A stretch of DNA of 64,000 nucleotides from Chloroflexota bacterium (GTDB lineage: Bacteria; Chloroflexota; UBA11872). The position numbers were made by a program, and so were the translations under genes. Position 1 is the first letter of the stretch, and each line of letters opens with the position of its first letter. The stretch lies in contig OZ244802.1 of the NCBI GenBank assembly GCA_965220135.1, positions 918,499 through 982,498 on the forward strand. Reading direction: 5' to 3'. The notes under the pieces were generated by a model. The model saw nothing but the letters and a program-made list of their open reading frames with translations, made no database searches and was not told the origin of the DNA. Below, piece after piece: positions 26,450 through 51,499 of this stretch.

Positions 26450-26671
26450 ATGAATGCGCCGTTGCAGCTTGCCCAGTTGGTGCTTTCCGTGATCGTGATT
26501 GCCGCGGTTCTGATCCAGTTGCGGAACACGGGGATGGGCTCGGCTTTGGGCGGCAGCGACAGTTCGTTCTTTCATGCCCGGCGAGGGGTCGACCGGCTGA
26601 CGTTCAACTTCACAATCGGTGCTTCGGCCCTTTTCTTCCTCGTTTCAATCCTGGCCGCCGTCCTCCAGTAG
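26450..26671 (+). CDS. secG: preprotein translocase subunit SecG
   Basis: 73 aa: MNAPLQLAQLVLSVIVIAAVLIQLRNTGMGSALGGSDSSFFHARRG...LTFNFTIGASALFFLVSIL. Confidence 0.8.
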   Translation: MNAPLQLAQLVLSVIVIAAVLIQLRNTGMGSALGGSDSSFFHARRGVDRLTFNFTIGASALFFLVSILAAVLQ

Positions 26672-27511
26672 GTCGTCGCGCACGAGGGACGCGTCGCAGA
26701 TCTGTCCGTAGGGACAACGGCGACATATCTGAGGGTCCACGGCCCGATTCGGCGCTTGCCAGAACGGATCGAACTGGCTCGCCTCAATGCCACGCACGAT
26801 GTCGGCAGCCCGAGAGGCAAAATACTCGAGGTCGTCGCGGCCGTACGTCCCGTTTAACTGCTGGACGAATGGCGGATCTTCGCGCACCAGCACGTCCACC
26901 CGTACCTGGGGAATGAAGAACGGCGCGGGCAGGTTGCCCGGACGAATCCGCGATCCGGCCCTGAAGACTCCGTAGCCGATCGCGTAGCACTGGAGTTGGA
27001 GGTCCCGATCCGGATATGACTCGGGGTAAGCCCGCCACGAGGTCTTGTGGTCGATCACCACGCCGTTCCGGTCGATGAGGTCGACGGTGCCGACGAGTTG
27101 GACCTGGACACCTGGAATATCGAATCTGAATCGATGCTCTACCAGATGCGGCGTGACGCCGGGCGCCACTTCCGTCAGGTAGAGATCCAGGACCGATTGA
27201 CCTGACGCGTAGGCCTCCTCGAACTGGTCTGACAATGGCCCCGATGCAGTCCCGGGCGGAAGTCGGGAATACCAAACGTCGTCGTAGATCTCAGCGGCCT
27301 CGTCCACATCCAGGTCATACCCGTTGCGGCGTTTCTCCAGGAAGTTGCGCTCCAGGGCGGCGTGGACCGCCTGGCCGACGAGCGACGCCGGCGAGTCGGT
27401 GGTTGGCACCCGATCCACGTAGCGCATCCGATACTGGAGCGGGCAGGTGTCGTAGGTGCGTAGCTGTGTGGGAGAGATTGACCGGAGCTGCCGTTGCATG
27501 TCGACTCGCAT
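26645..27511 (-). CDS. PD-(D/E)XK nuclease family protein, Cas4/RecB-like with Fe-S cysteine cluster (standalone)
   Basis: TYDTCPLQY (N-terminal Cys), VDLIDRNGVVIDHKTS (D...D/ExK), LQLQCYAIGY (QxxxY) and C-terminal CRRCPYGQIC. Start chosen at MRVDMQRQ. The upstream 340 codons of the ORF are the antisense of the GT2 gene. Confidence 0.7.
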   Translation of the reverse strand: MRVDMQRQLRSISPTQLRTYDTCPLQYRMRYVDRVPTTDSPASLVGQAVHAALERNFLEKRRNGYDLDVDEAAEIYDDVWYSRLPPGTASGPLSDQFEEAYASGQSVLDLYLTEVAPGVTPHLVEHRFRFDIPGVQVQLVGTVDLIDRNGVVIDHKTSWRAYPESYPDRDLQLQCYAIGYGVFRAGSRIRPGNLPAPFFIPQVRVDVLVREDPPFVQQLNGTYGRDDLEYFASRAADIVRGIEASQFDPFWQAPNRAVDPQICRRCPYGQICDASLVRDDLLEDGGQD

Positions 27512-27595
27512 GCTGAGAAGTTCTTGCGCAATCCTAAACGCGGTCCGTCGAGGGCATTTGAGCGCTGGGACAGCCGACAGGCCAAGACTGTGTGC

Positions 27596-28630
27596 ATGGT
27601 GAGCGACCAGCCCGAAGCCTCGGTCGTGATCGTGACCTGGAATGGGTTGTACCACTTGCAGCGATGCCTGCCGGCGCTGCGCGACCAGACCGGGGTGAGG
27701 TTCGAGACCATCGTCGTCGAGAACGGCAGCACGGACGGCACAGCCGAATGGATTGCCCGGGAGTATCCGCGGATCGTGCTGGAGCGCCTGGACTCGAATC
27801 ACGGGTTCGCCGCGGCCAACAACATCGGCTTTGGACTGGCGCGGGCGGACCTGGTTGCAACCCTCAACAACGACGCGGTTCCCGATCCAGACTGGCTGCA
27901 CTCGCTGGTTCAAACCGCACAGGAGCATCCCGAGGCCGGGTCGTTCGCCAGCCGGATCGTGCTGGACCGGGATCCCAACATCATCGATTCCGCCGGCGTG
28001 GTGACGGACGTGCTGGGCATCGCGTGGGACCGACACAACGCAGAGCCGGTTGGTTCGGACGAGGGTGGCGAGGTCTTCGGCGCGTGCGCCGGGGCCGCGC
28101 TGTACCGGAAGGCGTTGCTGGACGAGACCGGCGGGTTCGACCCGGCGTTCTTCGCCTACCTCGAGGACGTGGACCTGGCGTGGCGCGCGCGCTGGCTGGG
28201 CTGGACCGCGTGCTATGTCCCGGAAGCGCGGGTGGTGCATGCGCACTCGGGCACGGGGACCGAGGAGTCGCCGTTCAAGACGTTTCACCTGGGTCGCAAC
28301 AAGGTCTGGACGATTGCCAAGAACCACCCCACGCGCGCGCTCTTGACGTACGGGCCGCTGTTGGTGGCTTACGACCTGGCCTCGCTGCCAATCACGATGA
28401 CGCGCCAGCGGAGCCTGGCGGCGCTGCGCGGGCGGCTGGCCGGGCTGCGAACTCTTGGCCGGGTTCTCCAGCAGCGAAAGCGCGAGGAGGCCCGCCGGCG
28501 AGTTGCCTGGGATGACATTCGTCCGCATGTCGCCGGCCCGTCGTGGCCGTGGGACATTTGGCGCCGGCAGCGGCGTTTACGGCAGGCGGTGGCGACTGGG
28601 GGTCCGAGAACGAGCCTGGACGCTCGCTGA
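27596..28630 (+). CDS. glycosyltransferase family 2
   Basis: MVSDQPEASVVIVTWNGLYHLQRCLPAL...TIVVENGSTDGT...LDSNHGFAAANNIGF...ATLNNDAVPD covers the GT2 DxD/ED region. Confidence 0.85.
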   Translation: MVSDQPEASVVIVTWNGLYHLQRCLPALRDQTGVRFETIVVENGSTDGTAEWIAREYPRIVLERLDSNHGFAAANNIGFGLARADLVATLNNDAVPDPDWLHSLVQTAQEHPEAGSFASRIVLDRDPNIIDSAGVVTDVLGIAWDRHNAEPVGSDEGGEVFGACAGAALYRKALLDETGGFDPAFFAYLEDVDLAWRARWLGWTACYVPEARVVHAHSGTGTEESPFKTFHLGRNKVWTIAKNHPTRALLTYGPLLVAYDLASLPITMTRQRSLAALRGRLAGLRTLGRVLQQRKREEARRRVAWDDIRPHVAGPSWPWDIWRRQRRLRQAVATGGPRTSLDAR

Positions 28631-28644
28631 TAGACTCGCGCACT

Positions 28645-28721
28645 CGGGGCGTGGCGCAGGCTGGTAGCGCACCTGACTGGGGGTCAGGAGGTCGCCGGTT
28701 CAAATCCGGCCGCCCCGACCA
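28645..28721 (+). tRNA. tRNA-Pro (anticodon GGG)
   Basis: Cloverleaf: acceptor CGGGGCG/CGCCCCG, D-arm GCGC-AGGCTGGTA-GCGC, anticodon arm CCTGA-CTGGGGG-TCAGG (GGG at 34-36), variable AGGTC, T-arm GCCGG-TTCAAAT-CCGGC, discriminator A and an encoded CCA. Confidence 0.85.
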
Positions 28722-28796: not shown

Positions 28797-29987
28797 CTAG
28801 GCGGCTTGGCTCCAGCTTGCGATGAAGTCGTCCAGGTCAAAATCGGCGGGCATGTGCTCTTGCGCCCAACGCGAAGGTTTGCTGGCGAGGCTTGGCACGA
28901 AGTGCTCGGTCTCCGTTTGGAGCCGGGCGTCCAACGGTGCAAAGCGCTGTCCAAGCAGCTTCGTTTCAACGGCGGTGAATCGCCGTGCCAGCGCCTCGAG
29001 GTTGCCGATGCTGAAGGTCTGCTCGCCCACGGCTGACGCGCGCTCGCGTTCTGGCAGGTTTGCCAGTTCCGGGCGCTTCAGTTCGCCGATCCGGCGAGCC
29101 AGTTTCGACAGGAGGACTACGCAGACCATCCGTCCAGTGTGGCCTGGATGCAGCAAGGCCAGCGCCTGCCGGAAGGCTTGCGGATCCCGCTCGAGAATCG
29201 CGCGATAGAAGGCTTCGATCCGATTGTCCTCGCGTTCAGCCAGTTCCATAAACCGATGGAAGGCCGCTTGTCCCTCCGGCGACAGATGCCTGACGAAACC
29301 CGGCTCCCAGAGGAAGCGGGAGCCGTACGGATACAGCCGGCCACCGAACGAGGTGTACCTGAGATGGATGATGCGCCGCAGCCTGGTGCTGTAGTTGCTG
29401 GGCCAATGCAGGATGGTGTTGATGTAGATCACGCCGTCGCCGGCCTCGAGCTTGACCTGTCTACAGTCCGACAGCTTGGCGCGTGGGTCCTTCAGAAGCT
29501 CCCGGTTCTCCCGCGAGGTGTTCAGACGGCGATGACTTCCGGGGACGACCCACAGCACATCGTCGTCATACAGGGGGATGTTCCACTGCACGGAGCTTGG
29601 ACCGTTGGCCAGCATGTCGGCCTGTAAACCCGCCAGGGGAGCGTTGTTTGTTGGCCCGTGGCTTACATCGCGATGCCACAAGTCAGGCCCATAGGCGACC
29701 TCCGGGTTGCACAGGAGAATCATCTGCTTCAGGCCCACGTCGCGGGCGCCAAGCGCTTGCCGGCTGACACCGAGCGTGTTCTCGTGGAGACAGAACTCCA
29801 CCGTGTTGGCCGTCGCGGCATCAATGACGGACTGAAACGCGAGTCGAGGCTGCTTGGACGCGTAGGCGAAGCAGCCCGGGTCGTCGCGATCACGCGCCCA
29901 GTTAGCCTGCTGGCGGTCCACCAGCGTTTCGAAGCTGGCGCGCAATTCGTCCAGCCGTTCGGGCGGAACGACGTTCTTCAGAATCAC
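28797..29987 (-). CDS. phytanoyl-CoA dioxygenase (PhyH) family Fe(II)/2OG-dependent oxygenase-like protein
   Basis: DLWHRDVSHG (HxD), VVPGSHRR and IHLRYT are PhyH-like motifs. 396 aa. Confidence 0.55.
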   Translation of the reverse strand: MILKNVVPPERLDELRASFETLVDRQQANWARDRDDPGCFAYASKQPRLAFQSVIDAATANTVEFCLHENTLGVSRQALGARDVGLKQMILLCNPEVAYGPDLWHRDVSHGPTNNAPLAGLQADMLANGPSSVQWNIPLYDDDVLWVVPGSHRRLNTSRENRELLKDPRAKLSDCRQVKLEAGDGVIYINTILHWPSNYSTRLRRIIHLRYTSFGGRLYPYGSRFLWEPGFVRHLSPEGQAAFHRFMELAEREDNRIEAFYRAILERDPQAFRQALALLHPGHTGRMVCVVLLSKLARRIGELKRPELANLPERERASAVGEQTFSIGNLEALARRFTAVETKLLGQRFAPLDARLQTETEHFVPSLASKPSRWAQEHMPADFDLDDFIASWSQAA

Positions 29988-30163
29988 GAAGCCGTCGTCG
30001 AGAAGCTGCTCGGTATCGATCTGGATGGGCTGGGCTCCGGCGGCGCGGCCGCGTCAGTCTAGACCGGGCGTGCGGCTTCAAATGGCCAGCCAGGGCGAGT
30101 CCCTGCCCTCGCCTCTCCCGGTGTGGCCACAATGCTGGCCGGTAGTCGACCGATCAGGCTCCG

Positions 30164-31297
30164 CTAGCGACCGTAGGTTCGGCCCTTCCAGCCGCCGCCA
30201 ACGCCGGCGTAGTGCCGGCGCGCCGAGTCCAGGGTCATGGCGACGTAGATGACGGCCGACAGCGGCAACGTGACAGCCCGAAACATCGTGCCGCCGTACC
30301 AGCGGGTCATCGGTACGTAGCTAAACGTCATCAGTCCCCATCCAAGGATTCCAGCGGCGAGTGCCACCAACGACGGCTCAATGGCGGCTCCAGCCACGAG
30401 CCCTACGCCCCCGACAACTACCGCGATCGGCGCCGCGACAAAGGCCAGGAGCAGAGCGACGACTGTGCCCAGGAGTCGCATGGGCGAGTAGGCCAGCTGG
30501 GTGTAGGCCGTGCGCGCCACGACATGCCAGACGCCGGCTAGCCCGGCGTAGCCGCGAACGCTGTAGACATCGCGCCCCAGTCCCAGCCAGGTCCGGCCGC
30601 CGGCCTGCTTGATGCGGGCGGCCAAGGCGCAGTCGTCGATGATCTCGCCACGGATCGATTCGAAACCACCGATCCGCTCGAACGCGCGACGCTGTACCAG
30701 CACGCACCCACCCGCGGCGGCCGCCGTGCTGCGGTTGGGATCATTCGACCAGCGGAACGGGTAGAGCAGGCCAAAGAAGTAGACGAACGCCGGTACCAGC
30801 AACCGCTCGAAGGGCGTGACCGCCCTCAGGTTCGCCATTACCGACGCAAGGTCCACTTCGCGGTGTCGAGCCAGCCCGACCAGCCGCCGCAGGAGGTCGG
30901 GTGGATGGGCGATGTCCGAGTCGGTCAGGAGGATGTATTCGCAACGTCGAGCCGAATCCGAGGTCGCGCCGGTGTGCATGGCCCAGACCTTGCCGGCCCA
31001 TCCATCCGGGAGTTGAGGGGCCGCGACGAGGTGTACTCCGGGGCCCGTAGAACCAGCGCCAATGCCTTCGGCAACCTCCGTTGTGCCGTCAGTGCTGGAG
31101 TCGTCCACCACGACGATCTCGAAACGGCCGGGATAGTCCTGGTCCAATAGCGTGGGAAGCGTTCGCGGAAGGACCGCCGCCTCGTTTCGTGCCGGTATCA
31201 CGACTGTCACGGACGGCCAGTCGCGGGAAGCAGCGTCGCGGGGAGAATCCGGAAGTTGCACATTGACTCGCCAGTACCACCCGCGACCGAGAAGCAA
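30164..31297 (-). CDS. glycosyltransferase family 2 with C-terminal TM helices
   Basis: SVTVVIPARNEAAVLPRTLPTLLDQDYPG..EIVVVDDSSTDGT. The first start codon is TTG at 31297. The 90 nt upstream, to the WD40 stop, are in frame and encode a TM-like helix but contain no ATG/GTG/TTG. Confidence 0.75.
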   Translation of the reverse strand: MLLGRGWYWRVNVQLPDSPRDAASRDWPSVTVVIPARNEAAVLPRTLPTLLDQDYPGRFEIVVVDDSSTDGTTEVAEGIGAGSTGPGVHLVAAPQLPDGWAGKVWAMHTGATSDSARRCEYILLTDSDIAHPPDLLRRLVGLARHREVDLASVMANLRAVTPFERLLVPAFVYFFGLLYPFRWSNDPNRSTAAAAGGCVLVQRRAFERIGGFESIRGEIIDDCALAARIKQAGGRTWLGLGRDVYSVRGYAGLAGVWHVVARTAYTQLAYSPMRLLGTVVALLLAFVAAPIAVVVGGVGLVAGAAIEPSLVALAAGILGWGLMTFSYVPMTRWYGGTMFRAVTLPLSAVIYVAMTLDSARRHYAGVGGGWKGRTYGR

Positions 31298-31387
31298 CCA
31301 GACCCACGCGGCAGCAGCGACGGCCGTCAGCCCCGTGAGGACCGTCAGCCAGATGTCGATGTGCGCTCGTCGCCAGACCCGACGCGG

Positions 31388-33802
31388 TCAGTCCGCGCGG
31401 GCGATCCAGAATCGCAGCGCCCGGTCGTCGCCGACTGTGGCAAGCAAAGCACCGTCGGGACTGTAGGCCAGCGCTCGGATCCAGTCGATGTGGGCATCGA
31501 TGGCGCGTCCTAGTTTGAGGCGGCCGGTGGGATCGCGCAGGAGCGCGCGTTGATACGCGCCAATGGCCAGTTCGTCGCCGTACGGCCGATAGGCCAACGA
31601 GGTGATGAGACCCGCCTCCGGCTCGATCTCTCGCATGAGGCTATTGGAGCCGCTTGCCAGGATCTTGATCGTCTTGCCGTCCGCCAGCGCCATTTCGGCG
31701 ACCTGCGGATCGAAGCGAATTGCCCGGATCCAGTCGTCGAATCCCGTCAGCCGCAATCGCTCGACTCCCGTCCCCGCATCCAATAGCAAGACCTCCTGGT
31801 ACGTGCCGACCGCGGCAAGGCCCACGCCATCCGTTGCAATGGACGTTACGGGTCCCAATCCCATTACCACCCAGTTCTCAGCGCCATTGCTCGGATCCAG
31901 CCTTCGTACGACACTGCGGGCGTCGCCGGCCAACAGGTAACCGTCCGCCGCGAACGCCAGGGCGGTCACGCTATCCGGAACTGTCGGCGCTTCGGCCAAC
32001 AGCATCCCGTGCTGCGCGTCCCACAGCCGCACCCGGCCATCGTCTCCGCCGGAGGCGAGCACTCGTCCGTCCGGCGAATAGGCCACGGCGCGCGCCGGTC
32101 GGTCGTGGGCGGCTATGGAGGCGCGCATCGCGCCGTCGGTCCCGACGATCACGAGCGAGCCGTCATCCAGGGCGGCCGCAACCGACGTACCGAGGGGACT
32201 GGAGTCCACGGCATTGACGGGCGCGGGCAGGGTGGCTTCGGCGGCCAGTTCCGAGAGCGCCGTGGACCACACACCGACGTCTCCGTCCCAGCTCCCCGAA
32301 AGCAGGATTTCGCCGTCCGGACTGAAGCTGAGCCCCTGCACGTCGGTCGTGTGGCCGGTCAGGCTGTACAACCGTCTCGCGGTGGCGACATCCCAGACAC
32401 CCACCGTTCCGTCGCTTGAGGACGTGGCCAGCCGTCGCCCGTCCGGGCTGAAGGCCACCTGCCAGACGGAGTCGTTGTGGCCCGCGAGCGTCGCCAGTGT
32501 CGATCCGTCCGTTGCATCCCACAGCACGGCGGTGTTGTCGTCGGCGCCCGTTGCCAGGCGGGTGCCGTCGGAACTGATGGCGAGAGAAAGCACAGCCCGC
32601 GAGTGCTGGTCGACGAACTCGAGCAGACGCTCTCCCGTTGCCATGTCCCAGATATCGGCTCTGGCCCAACCGGTGGTTATCAGGCCTCCGCCGTCCGGTA
32701 AAAAGGCGACGCCATTTGACCAGGCGTCAATATCGTCGAACTTGGCAAGGTGCTCACCGGTTTCCACATTCCACACATGGGCCGCTGCGTAGGTCGTCGC
32801 AGCGACCAGGGTTCCGTCTGGACTAAAGGCCACGCTCGTAAACCACCGCTCGTCGGCTTGGAGCACCTGCAACTGTTCGCCAGAGCGTGCATCCCAGAGC
32901 CGCACGGTGTCGTCCTCCGAAGCGCTGGCAACCAGCGAGCCGTCGGGCGAATAGGCGACTTCGTAGATGCCGTCGAAGTGGCCCTCGAGTTCATGAATCG
33001 GCGTCAGGGTCGCGCGGTCCCAGATCACGACTCGGCGGTCATAGCCACCGGTGGCGAACGTGGAGCCTGATGGATCGAACGCCACGCTGGTTACCAGGGG
33101 ACTGTGGGCTTCCACGAGCTGTCGTGGAATGGGCGGCGGGGCCACCGGGATGGTTGCCGCCAGGGGAATCATCCCGGCCTGTTTGAAGTGGTCGCCGGCC
33201 GGGGCCAGTTGTACCTGACCGTTGTTCAGACGCAAGACGGCTCGCTGAGCCCGGAGCACACCTCCGTCCGGCGCCGACGCATATCCGAGCGGCAGCCCAA
33301 ATCGAACAAGGGCATTCGGAGCGGTTCGCCAGAAGTCTGTGATTTCCGAGGCAGCGGCCAGCGCTTCCAGGCGGGTCAGCGGGCCGGCGTCGGGAGGCAA
33401 GTATGTGCCGGGCGGTACGCCCTTGAAGTCGAGTAACCACGAGTCGTGTCCCGCCGTGGACATCTCGTCATAGATGTTGGCCGGACGAATGCCGCCGTCG
33501 GCGTCAGCCTGAAGTACAGCCCGTTGAAAGGCCTGGTAGACGAACGGCGCTTCGTGCCAGGGCTGCGAGATCGGAAAACCAAGCGTCTCGTGACCTCCGA
33601 GTTCCTCGTATGCGGTCCAGAATTGAGCGTCGCGGTCGTCGACAACCGGGTAGCCAAGACCACCCCCGCCGCCGGTCTGCGTGTAGAAAAAGCCGTGCTC
33701 GAGCGGAAAGCTTGCGGGAGTGGACGCGGCCCCAACTGTTGGCAATGCAAGCAGCGCGAGGGCCAGCAGCACTGCGATGCCACCACGAAGCTGTCTGCCC
33801 AT
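31388..33802 (-). CDS. secreted WD40 repeat protein with N-terminal LGFP-like repeat region
   Basis: Signal peptide MGRQLRGGIAVLLALALLALPTVGAAS. LGFP-like segments (GLGYPV..., ETLGFPISQPW, RFGLPLGYA). Then about 14 WD40 blades (GH..V..VAFSPDG..LAT.S.D.TV.LWD). Start set at the internal Met; the ORF extends to 33856. Confidence 0.8.
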   Translation of the reverse strand: MGRQLRGGIAVLLALALLALPTVGAASTPASFPLEHGFFYTQTGGGGGLGYPVVDDRDAQFWTAYEELGGHETLGFPISQPWHEAPFVYQAFQRAVLQADADGGIRPANIYDEMSTAGHDSWLLDFKGVPPGTYLPPDAGPLTRLEALAAASEITDFWRTAPNALVRFGLPLGYASAPDGGVLRAQRAVLRLNNGQVQLAPAGDHFKQAGMIPLAATIPVAPPPIPRQLVEAHSPLVTSVAFDPSGSTFATGGYDRRVVIWDRATLTPIHELEGHFDGIYEVAYSPDGSLVASASEDDTVRLWDARSGEQLQVLQADERWFTSVAFSPDGTLVAATTYAAAHVWNVETGEHLAKFDDIDAWSNGVAFLPDGGGLITTGWARADIWDMATGERLLEFVDQHSRAVLSLAISSDGTRLATGADDNTAVLWDATDGSTLATLAGHNDSVWQVAFSPDGRRLATSSSDGTVGVWDVATARRLYSLTGHTTDVQGLSFSPDGEILLSGSWDGDVGVWSTALSELAAEATLPAPVNAVDSSPLGTSVAAALDDGSLVIVGTDGAMRASIAAHDRPARAVAYSPDGRVLASGGDDGRVRLWDAQHGMLLAEAPTVPDSVTALAFAADGYLLAGDARSVVRRLDPSNGAENWVVMGLGPVTSIATDGVGLAAVGTYQEVLLLDAGTGVERLRLTGFDDWIRAIRFDPQVAEMALADGKTIKILASGSNSLMREIEPEAGLITSLAYRPYGDELAIGAYQRALLRDPTGRLKLGRAIDAHIDWIRALAYSPDGALLATVGDDRALRFWIARAD

Positions 33803-33900
33803 CAGCGTCGCCCGATCCCGCGGTTGCGCCGTCGGCCGCCACTCGCGGAGCACCAAGGCACTGCCTTTCGGCAGCCAGGCGTCATGCGAAGTCCCCGCGG

Positions 33901-34806
33901 CTAGGCCGGCCGAAGGGCTGCGCGAAGCGCCGGTGCGAGTAGGGGCCGCTGGAATTCATAGCCAGTGTCCAGGAGCTTACGCGGGATGACCCGCTGGCTG
34001 GAGAGCAGCGCTTCCCGCGCAAAACCGCCAAGCGCCGCCCGAAGGATTGGCGCGGGTATCGGAAGCACCGCCGCGCGGTGTAATTCGCGGGCCATTGTCT
34101 TTACAAACTCGCGGTTGGTCACGGTTTCCGGCGCCGCCACGACGATGGGGCCGCTCAGCGTCTCCCGCGCGATCGCCAGGCGAATAGCTCCAATCACATC
34201 CGCCAGGTCAACCCACGGCCAGTAGTGCCGGCCGGACCCAAACCAACCGCCGATTCCCAGCATGATGGGCAAACGCATTCGAGCCACGACGGGCGACCGG
34301 GAGTCGATTACGGGCGCCAGGCGGACAATGGCAACGCGAACTCCGGCGTCGGCGGCCGGTTGTGTCGCCGCTTCCCACTGGGTGGATACCCGGGGCAGGA
34401 ACCCTTCGCCGGGCGGGCTGATCTCGTCGAGCAGTTCTTCGCCGCGATCTCCATAGATGCCCGTGGCGCCGGCGCAAACGAGTATCGAAGGCCTTTGTGA
34501 CAAGCCCGCGATGGCTCTCGCCAGCGTCTCGGTGCCGCGCACGCGGCTTTCCCGGATTCGTTGACGCTTTTGGGTCGTCCACCGCAACGCGCTGATCGTC
34601 TCGCCGGCCAGGTGCACCACGGCATCCGTACCCTCCAGCCCAGAGTGATCGATGTCTCCGGTCTGCGGGTCCCAGCGAATATCGCCAGGCTGCACGCTCC
34701 TGGTGGCCGGTCGTACCAGGCGGACGACTTCGAGCCCGTCAGCGCGAAGGTCGGCGACGAGGGCCGCACCGACCAACCCGGTCGAGCCGCTGACGGCGAC
34801 GCGCAT
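33901..34806 (-). CDS. TIGR01777 family NAD-dependent epimerase/dehydratase-like protein (YfcH-type, DUF1731 C-terminus)
   Basis: MRVAVSGSTGLVGAALVADL (Rossmann)...GRHYWPWVDLADV is typical of TIGR01777. Confidence 0.75.
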   Translation of the reverse strand: MRVAVSGSTGLVGAALVADLRADGLEVVRLVRPATRSVQPGDIRWDPQTGDIDHSGLEGTDAVVHLAGETISALRWTTQKRQRIRESRVRGTETLARAIAGLSQRPSILVCAGATGIYGDRGEELLDEISPPGEGFLPRVSTQWEAATQPAADAGVRVAIVRLAPVIDSRSPVVARMRLPIMLGIGGWFGSGRHYWPWVDLADVIGAIRLAIARETLSGPIVVAAPETVTNREFVKTMARELHRAAVLPIPAPILRAALGGFAREALLSSQRVIPRKLLDTGYEFQRPLLAPALRAALRPA

Positions 34807-34822
34807 TTATGTCAACTCTCGG

Positions 34823-35761
34823 TTAGACAGTACGGGCGCCTTCGTCATATACGTGCGCCGGCGGACGTCGCAAGTCCCAGATCAACCCGGTCCAACTCAA
34901 CATCGTGAGCAGGTAGTGGGTCACGTCGATCTCCCACCAGAAGAATCCATTGCGCTCAGAGCCCGGGTACCGGTGATGGTTGTTATGCCAGCCCTCGCCC
35001 AGCGTGATCAGCGCCAGCAGGAGGTTGTTTCGACTCGTGTCCTTCGTGGGGAATCGCCGGCTGCCCCACATATGCGCGCCGGAGTTTATGAGGTACGTGG
35101 TGTGCAGCAGCATGACGGTGCTCGCCAGGAAGCACCATACGAATACCTGCAGCCAGGTCACGCCCGTAGAAGGGAATGCGCGCTCGAGCCAGAAACCCAA
35201 GGAAATCGTGCCGCCGGCGTAAAGCAGGGTGCTGCCGAAGTACCAGCGGTCGAGCCAGCGAAGTTCGGGGAAGCGGACCAGGTCCTTGACTTCTTCCCAG
35301 CGCGTGTCGTCGCGGTTGTAGGCGAGCAACCAGCCCATGTGCGCCCACCAGAATCCGCCCTTGAGCGGGGAGTGCACATCCTCCTCCTCGTCGGAGTGCC
35401 GGTGATGAAAGCGATGATGTCCGGCCCACCACAAGGGCCCCTTTTGAATCCCAAACGTGCCCAGCAGCGCCATGACAGCCTGGAAAACCCGCGTGGTCTG
35501 GAAGGTGCGGTGGGAGAAATAGCGGTGATAGAAGCCGGTAATGAAGAAGACGCGCATCCAATAGAACGCCAGGCAGGCCACGACGGCCGGCCAGCTCACG
35601 CCCACGATGAACGCCGCGAGTACTCCCAGATGCAGGGCAATGAACCCCCAGTTGTGCCGAATGGCCTGCCAGGCGGTATAGCGCTGTTCGACCCGAGTCG
35701 GCAGCTTGATCTTCTCCAGCTTCAGACCCTCCGGCGAAGCCTCAAGGCTTGTTTCGCTCAC
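34823..35761 (-). CDS. acyl-CoA desaturase (stearoyl-CoA 9-desaturase family)
   Basis: His boxes HRYFSHR, HHRFHHRHSD and HNNHH, with 4 TM helices. Confidence 0.85.
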   Translation of the reverse strand: MSETSLEASPEGLKLEKIKLPTRVEQRYTAWQAIRHNWGFIALHLGVLAAFIVGVSWPAVVACLAFYWMRVFFITGFYHRYFSHRTFQTTRVFQAVMALLGTFGIQKGPLWWAGHHRFHHRHSDEEEDVHSPLKGGFWWAHMGWLLAYNRDDTRWEEVKDLVRFPELRWLDRWYFGSTLLYAGGTISLGFWLERAFPSTGVTWLQVFVWCFLASTVMLLHTTYLINSGAHMWGSRRFPTKDTSRNNLLLALITLGEGWHNNHHRYPGSERNGFFWWEIDVTHYLLTMLSWTGLIWDLRRPPAHVYDEGARTV

Positions 35762-35943
35762 CAGCCAGTCATCTCCCTATGTGTCGCGCCGCTTGCGCGG
35801 CGGCCACGATACGTCCAAATCGAGGATGCGCAAAGCGCGGGTTGCTGACAACCCCGGCAGGCCACGCAGGCAAGGAGCATCAGCTCGGTCGGACCTGGGA
35901 CCGGCACGCCTCAGTCGGGATGCTGCAGGTGCAATTCTGGCGG

Positions 35944-37185
35944 CTATGAGCCGGTGGAAGCGGCCGACGTTGGGGACTCGGCGCGCTCGATGAGCACCTG
36001 GACGTCGCGAATCGTCCTTGTCTCGAAGCTCGCGGCGCAGGATGCGAGGTAGAAGTCCCACATCCGAATGAAGCGCTCGTCAAACCCAAGCGCCCGCACA
36101 CGCTTTTCAGCCTGCCAGAAGCGACGCCGCCATTCATCCAGCGTCCGAACATAGTGAGGGCCGATTTCCTCGATAGCGCGAACCGCCAGCGCCTGCCCGC
36201 CCCGCCGCACGGACTGCCGAATCTCGACCACCGCCGGCAGGACGCCCCCGGGAAAGATGTACTTGCTGATCCAGCCGGAGGCGCGCATACCTGAGGAGGC
36301 ATCGCGGTCCTGGATTCCGATCGTCTGCAGCAGCATCGTTCCCCCGGGTCGCATGACTCGTGAACAGGTAGCAAAGAACTCGTCCCAATACTCCTGGCCG
36401 ACGGCCTCGAACATCTCGATCGACACGACCTTGTCGAACGTGCCCTCGACGTCGCGGTAGTCCGAGTAGACGATCTCGACTCGGTCCTCCAGTCCGGCAG
36501 CCACGACCCGCTGCCTGGCCAGGCGATGTTGCTCGCGCGATACCGTGATGCCGACTACCCGGCAGCCTGTGGTCTCGGCCGCGTGGATTGCGAATCCACC
36601 CCAGCCACAACCGATTTCAAGCACCCGATCCCCGGGGCCCAGGTTCAGCTTGCGGCACACGAGGTCGAACTTTGCCTGCTGTGCCGCGCTCAAGTCCTGG
36701 CAACCGTCCCAGATCGCGCACGAGTAGGCCAGCGATTCGTCGAGAAACAAGCTGAAGAACTCGTTCCCGAGGTCGTAGTGGGCGTGGATGTTCTGTTCGC
36801 TTCCCGAGCGCGTATTCCGCCGTCGTGCGTGGCGCCACAGGTCCACCAGCCGTCGTGGCAAAGACATCGCGGCATCCAGCCGTACCCGTCGCGCATTGGC
36901 CAGCGCGCCGCGCAATACGGCCCGAAGATCGGGGCTGGACCACAGCCCCTCCATGTAGGCCTCGCCGGCGCCCGTCGATCCACCAATCAGGATCTGGGTG
37001 AAGGCACGGTCGTCGTGAATGTGGATCCGTGCGACGTCACCCTGCGCTGCATCGCCAAACGATTTTTCGGAACCGTCCGGCAGACGTGCCTCAAGCCGCC
37101 CGTGGCGCCAGCCTCGAAGCTGGCTCACGACGAGCGTGCGGGCAATTCGGTCAATCGCGCGGGCGAGAATCAGACGACCGGACAC
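35944..37185 (-). CDS. cfa: cyclopropane-fatty-acyl-phospholipid synthase family SAM-dependent methyltransferase
   Basis: VLEIGCGWGGFAIHAAETTGCRVVGITVS plus the CFA-synthase N-terminal region (YDLGNEFFSLFLD). Confidence 0.85.
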   Translation of the reverse strand: MSGRLILARAIDRIARTLVVSQLRGWRHGRLEARLPDGSEKSFGDAAQGDVARIHIHDDRAFTQILIGGSTGAGEAYMEGLWSSPDLRAVLRGALANARRVRLDAAMSLPRRLVDLWRHARRRNTRSGSEQNIHAHYDLGNEFFSLFLDESLAYSCAIWDGCQDLSAAQQAKFDLVCRKLNLGPGDRVLEIGCGWGGFAIHAAETTGCRVVGITVSREQHRLARQRVVAAGLEDRVEIVYSDYRDVEGTFDKVVSIEMFEAVGQEYWDEFFATCSRVMRPGGTMLLQTIGIQDRDASSGMRASGWISKYIFPGGVLPAVVEIRQSVRRGGQALAVRAIEEIGPHYVRTLDEWRRRFWQAEKRVRALGFDERFIRMWDFYLASCAASFETRTIRDVQVLIERAESPTSAASTGS

Positions 37186-45150: not shown

Positions 45151-46368
45151 ATGAGCCGTTCGCAGCAGCGTCAGCCTACCGTGCCCCCTCGACTCTCCGT
45201 TTGGGCCTACCCCTGGGACCTCGCCGACGAAGGCGTCGACTCGGCCCTGGACTGGCTGGCGGCGCACGGGTTCGACGCGATCGAACTCTGCCCCAATTAC
45301 CACGCAATCTCGACCTTCTCGCCTCGGAATCGCCGTCGCTCGCAGTTCTATTCGGAGCAGGGCGCCGTGTACTTTCCCGCCCGGGCTGAGCGATACAGCC
45401 GGATCAAGCCCGCGCTCTTTGACGAACCTGAGGTCTTGGCGGTCTACGAGCAGACTTCCCGAGGCGCCGAGTGCCGAGGGATGCAGCTCAACGCCTGGGT
45501 CATTGGGATGTTCCAGCCGTGGCTTGCGCGTGCCTATCCGGATACGGCCGTCGAAAACGCGTTCGGGCACCGCAGCTTTTCGGCGACGTGCCCGGCCCAT
45601 CCGGACATCCAGACCTACCTGCCCGAAATGCTGGCCGACTTTTGCGACCAGTATTCGATTAGCGGCCTGACGCTGGAAAACGTGGGTCATCCGGACTTCA
45701 CCTACGGGTGGGTACGCCCGCGCATCCTGGTGCACATGGACGCGTGGACGCAGTTTCTGGCGGGACTGTGCTTCAACGAGCACTCCATGTCGGCGGCTCG
45801 CGCCCACGGCGTCGATCCCGAGGACGTTCGCTCGTCCGTGGCCGGTGAACTTCGCGAACGCCTCGAAGCCGTACCGGATCCGGATGCGGCTGACGAAGAC
45901 CTGCCTGCGCAAGTCGCGGAACGCTGCGAGGCCGACGAGGAGTTTCGCGGCTACCTGGAAGCGCGCGAGCAGGCGGCAATCGGACTGGTGAAAGCCATTC
46001 GTTACGAGTTACGGCGCAGCGGCGTGCGGGTGGGCGTCAGCGAGGCATCGCTCGGCTGGGCCAACCACGGACTGCGCCTCGCCGACCTGCTGGACACGAT
46101 CGGCGCGCTCATGATTTCGGATCCCATGAATAACGCCGAAGTCGCCGACGCGCAGGTGCGAACGGTGCGTGATAGCGGCGCCGACATCGAGATCACGGTC
46201 AATCAGACAGCTCATCATGAAGTCGATCCGCACGGCCCGGGCTTCACGGCACGGGCACGCCGACTACGCGAGATCGAGCCGGATCGCGTGATGGTGTACA
46301 ACTTCGGCCTCTTGGCCCCGGCCACGCTCGCGCACGCCGGCTCGGTTCTACGCGAACACCTGGGATAG
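45151..46368 (+). CDS. hypothetical protein (possible TIM-barrel glycoside-hydrolase-like)
   Basis: 405-aa ORF with coding-like codon usage. No motif recognised with confidence. Confidence 0.5.
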   Translation: MSRSQQRQPTVPPRLSVWAYPWDLADEGVDSALDWLAAHGFDAIELCPNYHAISTFSPRNRRRSQFYSEQGAVYFPARAERYSRIKPALFDEPEVLAVYEQTSRGAECRGMQLNAWVIGMFQPWLARAYPDTAVENAFGHRSFSATCPAHPDIQTYLPEMLADFCDQYSISGLTLENVGHPDFTYGWVRPRILVHMDAWTQFLAGLCFNEHSMSAARAHGVDPEDVRSSVAGELRERLEAVPDPDAADEDLPAQVAERCEADEEFRGYLEAREQAAIGLVKAIRYELRRSGVRVGVSEASLGWANHGLRLADLLDTIGALMISDPMNNAEVADAQVRTVRDSGADIEITVNQTAHHEVDPHGPGFTARARRLREIEPDRVMVYNFGLLAPATLAHAGSVLREHLG

Positions 46369-48756: not shown

Positions 48757-49506
48757 CTAGAGCACAACGAACAAGAGCACGAAGTACGCGCCGACGAGAA
48801 GTACCGGCGGCATCAGTCCAAGCACGAAGACGCTGAGCAATCCTCGACGAGCGGGCGGCACAAGTGTGTGTAGGGCGGCGAAGCTGGTCAGGTGAGCAAG
48901 TACAAGCAGACCAGTGCTGACCGCAATGGAACCCGGATTGCTCACCCACCATGCAGGCAGGCGCGTGGCTAGGGACTGGCGGCGTAGCAGCTGATAGACC
49001 AGATCCTGTCCCTCAGGCGCCGGATCACCTTGCATGTAGAGCTGTCCCTCAGGATTCGTGTCACCGCCGACCGCCGCAAGAAAAACCGGCCAGCGAGTTC
49101 CGCGCGGAATGTCGAATTCGACGAAATATGTCTTTTCGGCCGACAGCGTCTCTGAGAATCGGAATAGCACCATCTCAAACCTGCGATGGGTCGACACGAC
49201 TGTAGTGCTCGCGGATTCGGCGACGGTCGAACCGCGCGGGCCTTCAAGTCGTAGGCGGGTGCCCAATACCGCAGCACTGTCCAGAGGGCCTCCAACGCGC
49301 ACCGGCGCCGCCAGCGTGTCAAACGGCTCCGCAGCCGTGAACACCTGGCCTGGCTGCACGTCGGCTGAGACGGGTCCCAGGGGAAAGACTGCGGTTTCCT
49401 TCTGATAGGTGGTCGAAGGCCAATCGACCGGGACGAGCATCACTGCGCACCAAATCCCCGCAACCACAATGGCCACGAGGGTGTTGCCGATGTGGCGTCT
49501 AGCCAT
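48757..49506 (-). CDS. hypothetical membrane protein
   Basis: N- and C-terminal TM helices. Overlaps the upstream gene by 8 nt (operon). Confidence 0.5.
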   Translation of the reverse strand: MARRHIGNTLVAIVVAGIWCAVMLVPVDWPSTTYQKETAVFPLGPVSADVQPGQVFTAAEPFDTLAAPVRVGGPLDSAAVLGTRLRLEGPRGSTVAESASTTVVSTHRRFEMVLFRFSETLSAEKTYFVEFDIPRGTRWPVFLAAVGGDTNPEGQLYMQGDPAPEGQDLVYQLLRRQSLATRLPAWWVSNPGSIAVSTGLLVLAHLTSFAALHTLVPPARRGLLSVFVLGLMPPVLLVGAYFVLLFVVL

Positions 49507-51499
49507 CGTCGTCGCCCACCACGCGATAGATCACCCGGGCACCGCCCGGACTGGTAAACACCGGCGCAAGCCGGTCGTGCGCCACTGCCCGGTCAAGCAC
49601 GGTCTGCTGTGCGGGACTCAGGTGGTTCTGCGCGGTATAGACGAGATCGATTCCTAATGTGCTGAGATCTTCGGGGGCGAGTTCGTCCTGAGCCCGTGCA
49701 TAGACATCGGCATACCGCTCGCGCGAGCCCCTGTTGTCGAAACCCATCGGAACCTGCAGCCGGCCAAACGTCACGGCGTACTTGTGCATGCCGTCAGCCA
49801 TGCTGCTGCTTAGTTCGATGAAGGTTCGCGGTCCGGGGAGCAGGAGAGCGCGTTGAGGATAGTCAAGCTCGGCCGCGAAACGTGCTGCCGCGAGCTCCTC
49901 CGCAAGCACCGGGCTCTCGGGCGTTCGCACTACACCGGGCAGCAAGGAAAGACTTACCAGCCAGGTGCCGGCAGCCAGTGCGACCAGACCACACGCCACG
50001 AGACGCGCGAGCCAAGTCCCGGTACGCCGCCAATGCCACAGGGCAGTGATCAAGATCGCTAGCGCCGGCGCCGAGAGCAGCAGGCCGACCTGGGTGAAGC
50101 GCCAGGTATTCCACGGGTTAAGTTCGTCATTCAGAACGCCCGGTATGAGCAGCGCGAATAGCCCGATGGCCGCAGGAGCCGCGAGGCCGATGCGGCGCTT
50201 AAGCGCAGCCACAACCACTGATCCGGCGATGGCTATCAGCGACCACCCGAACCCTTTCCAGGTCACCGGATCCAACACGCCCGCGCGCGTCACGGGAACC
50301 GTGGACATAAAGAGCGAGGGTTCAGAAAACAGCCCGTGCGTCGGAACTGTGAAGAGGTCCCTGGTGTCTAGGCGGAGAAATCCAGCTCGGTCGGGGCCGC
50401 GAGCGAATTCAGCCAGCGGGCCTTCGGGCACAAGCGCCATCAAGGATGCGGTGAGAACCAGACCAACGAGCGCCAGTGCCTCTTTTCGTCGCTCCGACAG
50501 CACGAGCACGGGCACAGGCAGGAGCAGACCCACCGCGATCACCGGAAACACGTGCTCGGCCGTAACGCCTATTCCGGCAAACGCAAGACTGCCAACCAAC
50601 AAGCTGGGCGGAAGACGGGTATGCCCGCCGGACATGGCAACCGCCAAAGCACCAACTCCCGCCGCGGCCGCCAATCCCACGACGAGGGTGTAGCTGAACG
50701 GGATTAGCTGCTGAAAGGACTCGCTGAGCACATAGCCCTCTTGTAGACGGGCCGGCCCGATGTCGACGAGCTTCTGGGCACTCGAAGCCGTCAGTTCGCC
50801 GAAGGGTGCGTTCGGAAGCGCGAGAAAATTCTGCGGACCAGCGACCGCGACGAGGAGTCCAGCCAACAGGCCGGTGGACTTGTCCGTGAGCAGCGTCACA
50901 GCTGCCGCAACGCCCCACAGGCACGCCAGTACGCTGACCAAAGTCACCGAGAGACTGGCCGCGAACACGTCGGCGCCACCGAGCCGTGCGACTGCCGCCG
51001 TCCAGAGTGGCCCACCAAATCGGTAGAAGAAGATTGTGTCCGGTTCCCATGGATGCGCCGGCGGCCAGTTGCCCGCCAGGAAGTGAGCGGCCAGTCCAAG
51101 TCGGATCAGCAGGTTCTCGTGCGTATTGGCGTGCCAGATGCTGGAAACAAACTCGACGCCACTAATGAACAGAACGAGCAGCAGCAACGAGCCGACTAGC
51201 CATAGCCACTTGCCGAGGTCTACGCGTAGCGGATCGCGCCGCCATTGCCAGGCAAGCCGCGCGGCCAAGACAGCGCAAGCGGCGTTGACTGCGGCCCCAG
51301 CGACTAGCAGGGGGACAACCTGCACGAGCGCGGCGATCCCAAACGTCACCAGGCCAATGCCCACCCCAAGGCCCACACCGCCCACGACCAAGAGCCGACG
51401 CTCATGTGGAAGCAACCAGCGAGCAATCTGCAGACCTGCCGCGCACGGAAGCAGCGCAATCAGCAGTGTCGAGAGGTACTCGTAGGGTTCAGCGATCAA
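49499..51499 (-). CDS. large polytopic integral membrane protein (possible GT-C-type glycosyltransferase), hypothetical
   Basis: 666 aa, more than 12 predicted TM helices, with a C-terminal soluble domain. Confidence 0.55.
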   Translation of the reverse strand: MIAEPYEYLSTLLIALLPCAAGLQIARWLLPHERRLLVVGGVGLGVGIGLVTFGIAALVQVVPLLVAGAAVNAACAVLAARLAWQWRRDPLRVDLGKWLWLVGSLLLLVLFISGVEFVSSIWHANTHENLLIRLGLAAHFLAGNWPPAHPWEPDTIFFYRFGGPLWTAAVARLGGADVFAASLSVTLVSVLACLWGVAAAVTLLTDKSTGLLAGLLVAVAGPQNFLALPNAPFGELTASSAQKLVDIGPARLQEGYVLSESFQQLIPFSYTLVVGLAAAAGVGALAVAMSGGHTRLPPSLLVGSLAFAGIGVTAEHVFPVIAVGLLLPVPVLVLSERRKEALALVGLVLTASLMALVPEGPLAEFARGPDRAGFLRLDTRDLFTVPTHGLFSEPSLFMSTVPVTRAGVLDPVTWKGFGWSLIAIAGSVVVAALKRRIGLAAPAAIGLFALLIPGVLNDELNPWNTWRFTQVGLLLSAPALAILITALWHWRRTGTWLARLVACGLVALAAGTWLVSLSLLPGVVRTPESPVLAEELAAARFAAELDYPQRALLLPGPRTFIELSSSMADGMHKYAVTFGRLQVPMGFDNRGSRERYADVYARAQDELAPEDLSTLGIDLVYTAQNHLSPAQQTVLDRAVAHDRLAPVFTSPGGARVIYRVVGDDDG

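What the first reader, a model, noticed from the sequence alone, without database searches (positions are those of the whole stretch)
30164..33856. Secreted LGFP+WD40 protein and GT2 glycosyltransferase in the same frame, separated by one TGA with no start codon for 90 nt
The WD40 ORF stop (TGA at 31388-31390) and the GT2 ORF are in the same reading frame. The 30 codons after the TGA encode a convincing positively charged segment plus a TM helix (RRAHIDIWLTVLTGLTAVAAAAWVWLLLGRGWYW), yet contain no ATG, GTG or TTG. The first possible start (TTG 31297) would truncate that helix. Possible explanations are a nonsense mutation or sequencing error splitting an originally fused WD40-TM-GT2 protein, programmed stop-codon read-through, a non-canonical start codon, or a GT2 starting further inside.
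Basis: seen in the sequence. Interest (0 to 1): 0.5.

Follow-up and report, generated by a model that had tools for sequence, protein, structure and literature searches.

The report
hpnB gene with conserved ATC start
The glycosyltransferase gene is not fused to the WD40 gene and is not read through from it; it is a separate hpnB gene that most likely starts at a rare ATC codon kept across a whole group of uncultured Chloroflexota, which is why gene finders cut off its membrane anchor.

Summary
The junction is as described. On the minus strand the WD40 ORF ends at TGA 31390..31388. The GT2 ORF is in the same frame. The next 30 codons hold no ATG, GTG or TTG, yet they encode a TM helix.

The GT2 is HpnB (TIGR03469, 476 bits against a cutoff of 379), and the family profile covers that helix. 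I compared 27 junctions (the window plus 26 relatives, 62-95% HpnB identity):
- The WD40 stop is TGA, TAA or TAG.
- The 27-nt spacer evolves neutrally (pN/pS 1.02). Two relatives carry an extra in-frame stop in it, and three carry a 1-nt length change that breaks the frame. One of those three is the closest relative.
- Codon 10 after the stop is ATC in 24, GTG in 2 and ATG in 1. Twelve nearby outgroups have ATG or GTG at exactly this position.
- Purifying selection begins there (pN/pS 0.39).

Best reading: hpnB starts at ATC 31360..31358 and gives a 398-aa protein. Fusion, sequencing error and programmed read-through are not supported. No Shine-Dalgarno signal stands out. The "LGFP" label has no Pfam support. 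This is a new example of a known kind, near-cognate start codons. Its practical consequence is that hpnB is truncated in many public annotations.

The parts
31388..33856 (-). Gene for an exported WD40 beta-propeller protein (822 aa from TTG 33856; an ATG at 33802 directly precedes the signal-peptide-like segment). Residues 1 to about 250 match no known family.
   Evidence: ORF. Pfam WD40 and beta-propeller families. No Pfam or PDB match for residues 1-250. Hydrophobic segment at residues 22-48. Conserved directly upstream of hpnB in all 26 clade loci, 58-93% identity.
31388..31390 (-). Stop codon (TGA) of the WD40 gene, a genuine terminator.
   Evidence: Among the 24 junctions with the stop in frame (window included), this position is TGA in 14, TAA in 9 and TAG in 1.
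31361..31387 (-). 27-nt non-coding spacer between the WD40 stop and the hpnB start. It reads as PRRVWRRAH in frame.
   Evidence: pN/pS 1.02, against 0.12 (WD40 end) and 0.39 (hpnB start) on its flanks. Extra in-frame stops in L013 and L110. Length 28 nt in L009 and L109, 26 nt in L016, and 27 nt in the rest. Anti-SD pairing is no better than in coding controls. No supported conserved RNA structure.
31358..31360 (-). ATC, the proposed initiation codon of hpnB.
   Evidence: ATC in 24 of 27 junctions, GTG in L015 and L016, ATG in L111. Ten outgroup loci have ATG and two have GTG at this exact position, 25 codons before the R of the RG.FW motif. This is also the modal annotated N-terminus of HpnB homologues. 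The coding signature starts here.
30164..31360 (-). hpnB coding sequence as re-annotated here: 398 aa plus TAG stop, a GT2 glycosyltransferase of the HpnB family.
   Evidence: TIGR03469 HpnB 476.4 bits against cutoff 379.25, profile positions 2-384 of 386. PF00535, 79 bits. 20 clade orthologues are exactly 398 codons from this column; whole-gene pN/pS is 0.29.
31286..31354 (-). N-terminal transmembrane helix of HpnB (residues 3-25, IWLTVLTGLTAVAAAAWVWLLLG).
   Evidence: Hydropathy. Covered by the family profile. Leu codon 14 varies only synonymously: CTG, TTG, CTA, TTA.
31346..31354 (-). Other near-cognate codons in the window that could contribute to initiation: ATC 31354..31352 and CTG 31348..31346.
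   Evidence: Neither column is conserved as a start-capable codon. Column 12 is ATC, ATT, CTC, GTC, GCC or CCC. Column 14 is CTA or TTA in 4 loci.
31295..31297 (-). First canonical start-type codon (TTG). It lies inside the helix and is probably just an internal Leu codon.
   Evidence: A start here would remove 21 residues and most of the TM helix. The column is CTG in 3 of the 24 in-frame junctions.
31382..31398 (-). GC-rich hairpin-capable sequence (GCGCGG-ACUGA-CCGCGU) with the stop codon in its loop. It is present but not shown to be selected.
   Evidence: 85% of cells pair across 23 sequences, but covariation is not above shuffles (85-136 of 500 shuffles reach the observed values). RNAalifold did not choose it.

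Best explanation
These are two separate, co-oriented genes. The WD40 gene terminates normally at TGA 31390..31388. After a 27-nt non-coding spacer, hpnB initiates at the near-cognate codon AUC (ATC 31360..31358), presumably decoded as fMet by initiator tRNA. The product is a 398-aa membrane glycosyltransferase beginning (M)DIWLTVLTGLTAVAAAAWVWLLLGRGWYW, with its N-terminal TM helix intact.

The ancestral ATG or GTG at this position was replaced by ATC in the ancestor of a clade of uncultured Chloroflexota. ATC has been retained through their diversification, with two reversions to canonical starts. The shared reading frame with the WD40 gene is a by-product of the conserved 27-nt spacer length.

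Shown here: the separate genes, the neutral spacer, the positional equivalence of ATC to canonical starts, the onset of coding constraint at that codon, and purifying selection on the gene.

Inferred, not shown: that ribosomes really initiate at AUC, that this gives low expression (AUC gives 1-2% of AUG in E. coli reporters), and that traffic from the upstream WD40 ORF may help.
For: 1. The GT2 is HpnB, and the family profile covers the helix from residue 18 after the stop.
2. In 27 junctions, column 10 after the stop is ATC in 24, GTG in 2 and ATG in 1. It is never another codon, whereas the neighbouring hydrophobic column 12 shows ATC, ATT, CTC, GTC, GCC and CCC.
3. All 67 outgroup loci have a canonical start at least 18 codons before the RG.FW motif. 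In 12 of them, including the nearest Chloroflexota/Dehalococcoidia outgroups (L017-L020, L023, L027-L029, L033, L037, L040), ATG (10) or GTG (2) sits at exactly -25, which is column 10.
4. The modal annotated N-terminus of HpnB homologues is also 25 residues before that R: 31 of 61. One example is P0110, MDVLLGVLTAV..., against the window's (I)DIWLTVLTGL.
5. pN/pS is 1.02 in spacer columns 1-9, 0.39 in columns 11-14 and 11-30, and 0.44 in columns 31-60. Leu14 changes only synonymously, including CTG to TTA, so it is translated, and no canonical start lies upstream of it.
6. In an NJ tree the GTG (L015) and ATG (L111) states are nested among ATC lineages. Changes at this codon are therefore only to start codons.
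7. The gene is intact and constrained: 20 orthologues have exactly 398 codons and whole-gene pN/pS is 0.29.
8. In 14 of 27 junctions, window included, the furthest-upstream canonical start-type codon is only 4 codons before the R (13 junctions) or absent altogether (L116). Gene callers produced truncated 348-, 353- and 365-aa products in many relatives.
9. AUC supports initiation with N-terminal Met at 1-2% of AUG in E. coli (bioRxiv 10.1101/063800).
Against: - There is no direct evidence of initiation: no proteomics or ribosome profiling, and the organisms are uncultured.
- No Shine-Dalgarno signal stands out. Mean anti-SD duplex energy is -4.25 kcal/mol, against -3.93 +/- 2.19 in coding controls.
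- Invariance of ATC over ATT/ATA is only weakly informative in a 65% GC genome where ATC is the preferred Ile codon.
- The 24 ATC sequences are related, so they may represent a single substitution event.
- In the window, a second ATC (column 12) and a CTG (column 14) are also near-cognate codons and could share initiation. In L016 a second GTG at column 14 was the annotated start.
- A 27-nt gap is longer than the distances at which termination-reinitiation works in E. coli and Haloferax (about 20 nt nearly abolishes it; PMC10666635). The suggested help from upstream translation is therefore weak.
Confidence: 0.8

Rival explanations
1. Programmed stop-codon read-through (or UGA recoding) makes a WD40-TM-GT2 fusion protein, possibly alongside the separate WD40 protein.
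For: The two ORFs are in frame in the window and in 23 of 26 relatives. The topology would be self-consistent: exported propeller, TM helix, cytoplasmic GT2. The base after the stop is usually C.
Against: - The stop codon is TGA, TAA or TAG, so it is not UGA-specific.
- Spacer pN/pS is 1.02.
- L013 and L110 carry a second in-frame stop in the spacer.
- L009, L016 and the closest relative L109 (95% HpnB identity) have a 1-nt length difference that breaks the frame.
- No conserved downstream RNA structure was found, and Rfam has no hit there.
- None of the 120 best homologues exceeds 474 aa or carries a WD40 Pfam domain.
Confidence: 0.03
2. A recent nonsense mutation or an assembly or sequencing error split an originally fused gene, or destroyed the start codon, in this one assembly.
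For: A single-base change could in principle create the TGA or turn ATG into ATC.
Against: The same organisation (stop, 27-nt spacer, ATC) is found in 23 other independent assemblies from different samples and sequencing technologies. These span 72-95% HpnB identity. No relative has a fused ORF.
Confidence: 0.01
3. HpnB starts at an internal canonical codon (TTG 31297 or GTG 31261) and lacks the N-terminal helix. Alternatively, in the window, initiation occurs mainly at the other near-cognate codons (ATC 31354, CTG 31348) rather than at ATC 31360.
For: TTG at column 31 is present in 21 of the 24 in-frame junctions. Gene callers chose such internal starts. Column 14 is TTG in L007, L009 and L110 and GTG in L016.
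Against: - Columns 11-30 are under purifying selection (pN/pS 0.39) with synonymous-only change at Leu14.
- The helix is part of the HpnB family profile and of the annotated N-termini in outgroups.
- Column 31 is CTG in three loci, and L116 has no canonical start-type codon at all in the open stretch before the RG.FW motif.
- Column 14 is CTA or TTA, which are not start-capable, in four loci. Column 12 is not conserved.
Confidence: 0.12
4. hpnB lost its start codon and is a decaying pseudogene in this clade.
For: There is no canonical start codon in front of the conserved N-terminus, and no evident SD.
Against: The ORF is intact at exactly 398 codons in 20 lineages. Whole-gene pN/pS is 0.29 at pS 0.45. 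Synteny is conserved.
Confidence: 0.03

Closest known systems
infC (translation initiation factor IF3) and pcnB of E. coli, the confirmed bacterial genes with a near-cognate AUU start
   Same: A conserved AUH codon stands in the place of AUG, GUG or UUG, while orthologues elsewhere use canonical starts. Low intrinsic initiation efficiency is expected. pcnB start codons also alternate between species (bioRxiv 10.1101/063800).
   Different: The codon here is AUC, not AUU. The gene is a membrane glycosyltransferase with no link to the translation apparatus, so the IF3 autoregulatory logic of infC has no obvious counterpart. No experimental evidence exists here.
Reporter measurements of initiation from AUC in E. 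coli (Hecht et al., bioRxiv 10.1101/063800)
   Same: They show that AUC can initiate with N-terminal Met, at 1-2% of the AUG level. That makes the proposed mechanism feasible.
   Different: The reporter was synthetic, with a strong ribosome-binding site, in a proteobacterium. Here the gene is natural, lacks a clear SD and is in Chloroflexota.
HpnB, hopene-associated glycosyltransferase family (TIGR03469)
   Same: There is a full-length match above the curated cutoff, a GT2 domain, an N-terminal TM helix and C-terminal TM segments.
   Different: No hopanoid genes were seen in the flanking genes or large ORFs scanned in this window. The neighbours are a CFA-synthase-like methyltransferase, a desaturase, a TIGR01777 oxidoreductase, a WD40 protein and a PhyH-like protein. 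The start codon is non-canonical.
Translational coupling by termination-reinitiation in closely spaced gene pairs (PMC10666635, PMC12548453)
   Same: The genes are co-oriented with a short spacer of conserved length. The weak downstream start could benefit from upstream ribosome traffic.
   Different: The gap is 27 nt. Experiments show that about 20 nt already nearly abolishes reinitiation. Typical coupled pairs overlap by 1 or 4 nt.

Membership tests
HpnB (TIGR03469, hopene-associated glycosyltransferase) | Whole-protein score above NCBIfam's curated cutoff with near full-length profile coverage | tested here: met
   476.4 bits against cutoff 379.25; profile positions 2-384 of 386
HpnB (TIGR03469, hopene-associated glycosyltransferase) | GT2 catalytic domain | tested here: met
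   PF00535 79 bits, PF13641 70 bits
HpnB (TIGR03469, hopene-associated glycosyltransferase) | Genomic association with hopanoid biosynthesis genes (squalene-hopene cyclase, hpnA, hpnH) | tested here: not met
   The neighbouring epimerase scores 30 bits on HpnA against a cutoff of 368 and is TIGR01777 instead. No cyclase was found among the 10 large ORFs scanned. Only part of the 64-kb window was examined, not the genome.
HpnB (TIGR03469, hopene-associated glycosyltransferase) | Biochemical activity on a hopanoid substrate | not testable with these tools
   NCBIfam labels the family a hypothetical equivalog.
Genes with a near-cognate (non-AUG/GUG/UUG) initiation codon, such as infC and pcnB | No canonical start codon upstream of a conserved, translated N-terminus | tested here: met
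   13 of 27 junctions have only the helix-internal TTG, and L116 has none.
Genes with a near-cognate (non-AUG/GUG/UUG) initiation codon, such as infC and pcnB | The codon occupies the position of a canonical start in orthologues | tested here: met
   ATG or GTG at the same column in L015, L016, L111 and 12 outgroup loci. It is also the modal annotated N-terminus.
Genes with a near-cognate (non-AUG/GUG/UUG) initiation codon, such as infC and pcnB | Coding constraint begins at that codon | tested here: met
   pN/pS is 1.02 upstream and 0.39 downstream.
Genes with a near-cognate (non-AUG/GUG/UUG) initiation codon, such as infC and pcnB | Ribosome-binding signal (SD) at the appropriate distance | tested here: not met
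   Anti-SD duplex energy is indistinguishable from coding controls.
Genes with a near-cognate (non-AUG/GUG/UUG) initiation codon, such as infC and pcnB | Experimental N-terminus (fMet/Met at the near-cognate codon) | not testable with these tools
   Needs proteomics, initiation-site ribosome profiling or reporters.
Programmed stop-codon read-through or selenocysteine recoding | Conserved stop-codon identity, conserved frame, and downstream sequence under coding constraint | tested here: not met
   Stops are TGA 14, TAA 9 and TAG 1. The frame is broken in L009, L016 and L109. L013 and L110 have extra stops. Spacer pN/pS is 1.02.
Programmed stop-codon read-through or selenocysteine recoding | Stimulatory RNA structure downstream of the stop (e.g. 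SECIS) | tested here: not met
   No supported consensus structure. The hairpin across the stop has no covariation above shuffles. No Rfam hit.
Fused WD40-GT2 protein | At least some orthologues with an uninterrupted ORF | tested here: not met
   0 of 26 related loci. The 120 best homologues are at most 474 aa and have no WD40 domain.
LGFP-repeat proteins (Pfam PF08310) | Match to the LGFP repeat profile | tested here: not met
   No Pfam family at E<=10 for residues 1-250 of the WD40 protein.
Termination-reinitiation coupled gene pair | Overlap or very short gap (about 10 nt or less) between the stop and the downstream start | tested here: not met
   The gap is 27 nt. Published distance dependence is in PMC10666635.

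The most novel reading that the evidence does not exclude
The AUC start may be a selected, deliberately weak initiation site rather than a tolerated defect. It appears only in the lineage where hpnB lies a fixed 27 nt behind the exported WD40 gene. HpnB synthesis might therefore depend on ribosomes translating the WD40 mRNA (unmasking or local delivery at the membrane). That would tie a low dose of the glycosyltransferase to the propeller protein as a two-part envelope-lipid module. It might also make HpnB output sensitive to IF3 level, as with infC.
Probability: 0.15. Interest if true: 0.5.

Novelty: new member of a known kind. Interest (0 to 1): 0.33.

Why it matters
1. Annotation. In this clade hpnB is systematically mis-called. 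Public products of 348, 353, 365, 377 or 388 aa lack part or all of the membrane anchor, because gene finders only allow ATG, GTG and TTG. The correct product is 398 aa.
2. Evolution. The case documents an ATG or GTG start codon replaced by ATC and then kept through diversification down to about 71% protein identity. The gene stays under purifying selection, and there are two reversions to canonical starts. Natural AUC starts outside the translation-factor genes are rarely documented.
3. Interpretation. It removes a tempting but wrong reading, a WD40-GT2 fusion or read-through protein.

It does not open a major question, and the mechanism belongs to a known kind.

Tried and rejected
- Shine-Dalgarno support. 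A GGACGA-like motif 6 nt upstream looked promising by eye. Anti-SD duplex energies were no better than random coding windows, so I dropped it as evidence.
- Conserved RNA structure at the junction. RNAalifold gave -11.95 kcal/mol, with a covariation term of -0.89 and one compensatory pair. A hairpin spanning the stop codon pairs in 85% of cells but has no covariation above shuffles. It is not claimed.
- Rfam scan of the whole window. Only SRP RNA and a tRNA were found, nothing at the junction.
- Metagenome scan for more relatives. It yielded only one extra clade member, L081.
- Source contig. I looked for it through the 365-aa and 377-aa versions of the product; neither is on record.
- LGFP and other identities for the N-terminal 250 aa of the WD40 protein. 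There were no Pfam or PDB sequence matches.
- Termination-reinitiation as the main mechanism. I down-weighted it because published work shows a gap of about 20 nt nearly abolishes it.
- Literature search for natural AUC start codons. It returned nothing specific. My recollection that some infC genes use AUC is from memory and was not verified.


Full report
**Observation**

All features are on the minus strand.
- The 822-aa WD40 ORF runs 33856..31388 and ends with TGA at 31390..31388.
- The downstream GT2 ORF ends at 30164. 31388-30164 = 1224 nt, so the two share a frame.
- The 30 codons after the TGA (31387..31298) translate to PRRVWRRAHIDIWLTVLTGLTAVAAAAWVW and contain no ATG, GTG or TTG.
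- The first canonical start-type codon is TTG at 31297, inside a hydrophobic helix.

The core observation is therefore correct. On its own it is not improbable. About 6% of in-frame codons in these genes are ATG, GTG or TTG, so a 30-codon gap has P of about 0.16, and a shared frame has P of 1/3.

The "LGFP" label is not supported. The first 250 residues of the WD40 protein match no Pfam family at E<=10 and no PDB sequence. The WD40 propeller itself is clear. A signal-peptide-like segment is present at residues 22-48.

**What the GT2 is**

The read-through translation matches NCBIfam TIGR03469, HpnB (hopene-associated glycosyltransferase), with 476.4 bits against a cutoff of 379.25. Profile positions 2-384 of 386 align from residue 18 after the stop. 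Pfam GT2 domains are also present. The helix that lies in the start-free stretch is thus part of the family, and the real start must be upstream of TTG 31297.

**Comparative data**

A protein search found many close Chloroflexota homologues. Their annotated lengths are oddly scattered (348, 353, 365, 377, 388, 393, 398 aa), which suggests that gene callers struggled with the start.

I collected DNA for 26 related loci. These came from genome representatives, one metagenome contig and contigs encoding nine homologues. They span 62-95% HpnB identity.

In all of them an orthologue of the WD40 gene (58-93% identity) lies directly upstream of hpnB. In the more distant loci (about 51% HpnB identity or less) no WD40 orthologue lies directly upstream; two cyanobacterial loci show only weak (30-33%) opposite-strand WD40 hits. 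The block desaturase, TIGR01777 oxidoreductase, WD40, HpnB, PhyH-like is syntenic across the clade.

**The junction in 27 sequences**
1. No relative has a fused ORF.
2. Among the 24 junctions with the stop in frame, it is TGA in 14, TAA in 9 and TAG in 1.
3. The spacer is 27 nt in 24. It is 28 nt in L009 and in the closest relative L109 (95% identity), and 26 nt in L016, so the frame is broken in those three.
4. L013 (TGA) and L110 (TAG) carry a second in-frame stop inside the spacer.
5. Pairwise Nei-Gojobori counts give these pN/pS values:

| Segment | pN/pS |
|---|---|
| Last 30 WD40 codons | 0.12 |
| Nine spacer codons | 1.02 |
| Columns 11-14 | 0.39 |
| Columns 11-30 | 0.39 |
| Columns 31-60 | 0.44 |

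6. Column 14 is always Leu but uses CTG, TTG, CTA and TTA. It is therefore translated as Leu, although no canonical start lies upstream of it.
7. Column 10 after the stop is ATC in 24 sequences (window included), GTG in L015 and L016, and ATG in L111. No other codon occurs there. The neighbouring hydrophobic column 12 shows six different codons.

**Position of column 10 in the wider family**
- Among annotated HpnB homologues, the modal N-terminus lies 25 residues before the R of the conserved RG.FW motif (31 of 61). That is exactly column 10.
- In a survey of 93 loci, all 67 outgroup loci have a canonical start at least 18 codons before that R.
- In 12 outgroup loci, including the nearest Chloroflexota/Dehalococcoidia outgroups, ATG (10) or GTG (2) sits at exactly -25.
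- Inside the clade, 13 of 27 junctions have only the helix-internal TTG. L116 has no canonical start-type codon at all in the open stretch.
- An NJ tree places L016 (GTG) outside an ingroup that is ATC throughout. L015 (GTG) and L111 (ATG) are nested as reversions.
- The gene is not decaying. Twenty orthologues have exactly 398 codons from this column, and whole-gene pN/pS is 0.29 at pS 0.45.

**Interpretation**

The best explanation is that hpnB is a separate gene initiating at the near-cognate codon AUC (31360..31358). Its product is a 398-aa protein with an N-terminal TM helix at residues 3-25 and a cytoplasmic GT2 domain. The ATC replaced an ancestral ATG or GTG and has been retained across the clade. 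The shared frame with the WD40 gene follows from the conserved 27-nt spacer and has no coding meaning. The "positively charged segment" lies in the neutral spacer.

AUC is known to initiate with Met at 1-2% of the AUG level in E. coli reporters. The only confirmed natural non-canonical starts in E. coli are the AUU codons of infC and pcnB (bioRxiv 10.1101/063800). Actual initiation at AUC in these organisms is inferred, not shown.

**What does not support it, and open points**
- I found no Shine-Dalgarno signal above background. Mean anti-SD duplex energy is -4.25 kcal/mol, against -3.93 +/- 2.19 for coding controls.
- I found no supported conserved RNA structure.
- A GC-rich hairpin with the stop codon in its loop (31398..31382) pairs in 85% of cells but shows no covariation beyond shuffles.
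- Rfam has nothing at the junction.
- The constant spacer length, and the fact that ATC occurs only where hpnB follows the WD40 gene, hint at help from upstream translation. Published work, however, shows that a gap of about 20 nt nearly abolishes termination-reinitiation (PMC10666635). I rate coupling as a minority possibility.
- In the window, a second ATC (31354) and a CTG (31348) could share initiation. Neither column is conserved as start-capable.

**Rivals**

| Rival | Main evidence against | Confidence |
|---|---|---|
| Programmed read-through or recoding | Variable stop identity, neutral spacer, extra stops, broken frames | 0.03 |
| Split fusion or sequencing error | 23 independent assemblies share the same state; no fused orthologue | 0.01 |
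| Internal canonical start or other near-cognate start | Selection on the helix codons; family N-terminus | 0.12 |
| Pseudogene | Purifying selection on an intact ORF | 0.03 |

**Context**

No squalene-hopene cyclase or true hpnA was seen among the neighbours or the ten large ORFs scanned. HpnB membership therefore rests on sequence only. The neighbours suggest membrane-lipid modification: a CFA-synthase-like methyltransferase, a desaturase, a TIGR01777 oxidoreductase and a PhyH-like protein.

**Verdict**

Of the four interpretations offered, the non-canonical start is the supported one. This is a new example of a known phenomenon. Its practical value is correcting a systematically truncated annotation, and it has modest evolutionary interest as a long-retained AUC start. 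Interest is about 0.33.

Noticed in passing
window 33107-33856 (-), residues 1-250 of the WD40 protein: After the signal-peptide-like segment, the N-terminal ~230 residues match no Pfam family (E<=10) and no PDB sequence. They are nevertheless conserved across the clade along with the propeller. This is an uncharacterised exported domain.
   Followed up: partly
window 28797-37185 (-) and L109-L117: There is a conserved syntenic block: a CFA-synthase-like methyltransferase, a fatty-acid desaturase, a TIGR01777/YfcH oxidoreductase, the WD40 protein, HpnB and a PhyH-like dioxygenase, followed by a divergent GT2, PDDEXK_1, SecG and PdxA. It looks like a membrane-lipid modification cluster, and no hopanoid cyclase is nearby.
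   Followed up: partly
window 31382-31398 (-): A GC-rich inverted repeat (GCGCGG/CCGCGT) places the WD40 stop codon in a 5-nt loop. It is pairable in 85% of cells across relatives, but covariation is no better than in shuffles.
   Followed up: yes
window 28645-28721 (+) and 9910-10173 (+): A tRNA-Pro (anticodon GGG) lies immediately after the divergent GT2 ORF. A bacterial large SRP RNA (148 bits) is also present.
   Followed up: no
window 26645-28528 (-): This 627-aa ORF overlaps the plus-strand GT2 gene (27494-28630). It is probably mostly a GC-rich artefact. Relatives annotate only a ~260-aa PDDEXK_1 protein here.
   Followed up: no
L015 (OZ253587.1) and L116 (ERZ25072076 ctg245646): In L015 hpnB ends early at 361 aa with an aberrant C-terminus. 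In L116 the WD40 gene is split into two ORFs. These are likely indel errors in long-read assemblies rather than biology.
   Followed up: no
window 49499-51499 (-), 7503-9122 (+), 45151-46368 (+): Three large ORFs (666, 539 and 405 aa) have no Pfam match at E<=1e-8.
   Followed up: no
L110 (JGI Ga0393978_000107) 4001: The JGI annotation starts hpnB at a TTG four codons after the conserved ATC and writes the first residue as L. Other pipelines chose GTG or TTG codons 13 to 50 residues further in. Start calls for this gene are inconsistent across databases.
   Followed up: yes
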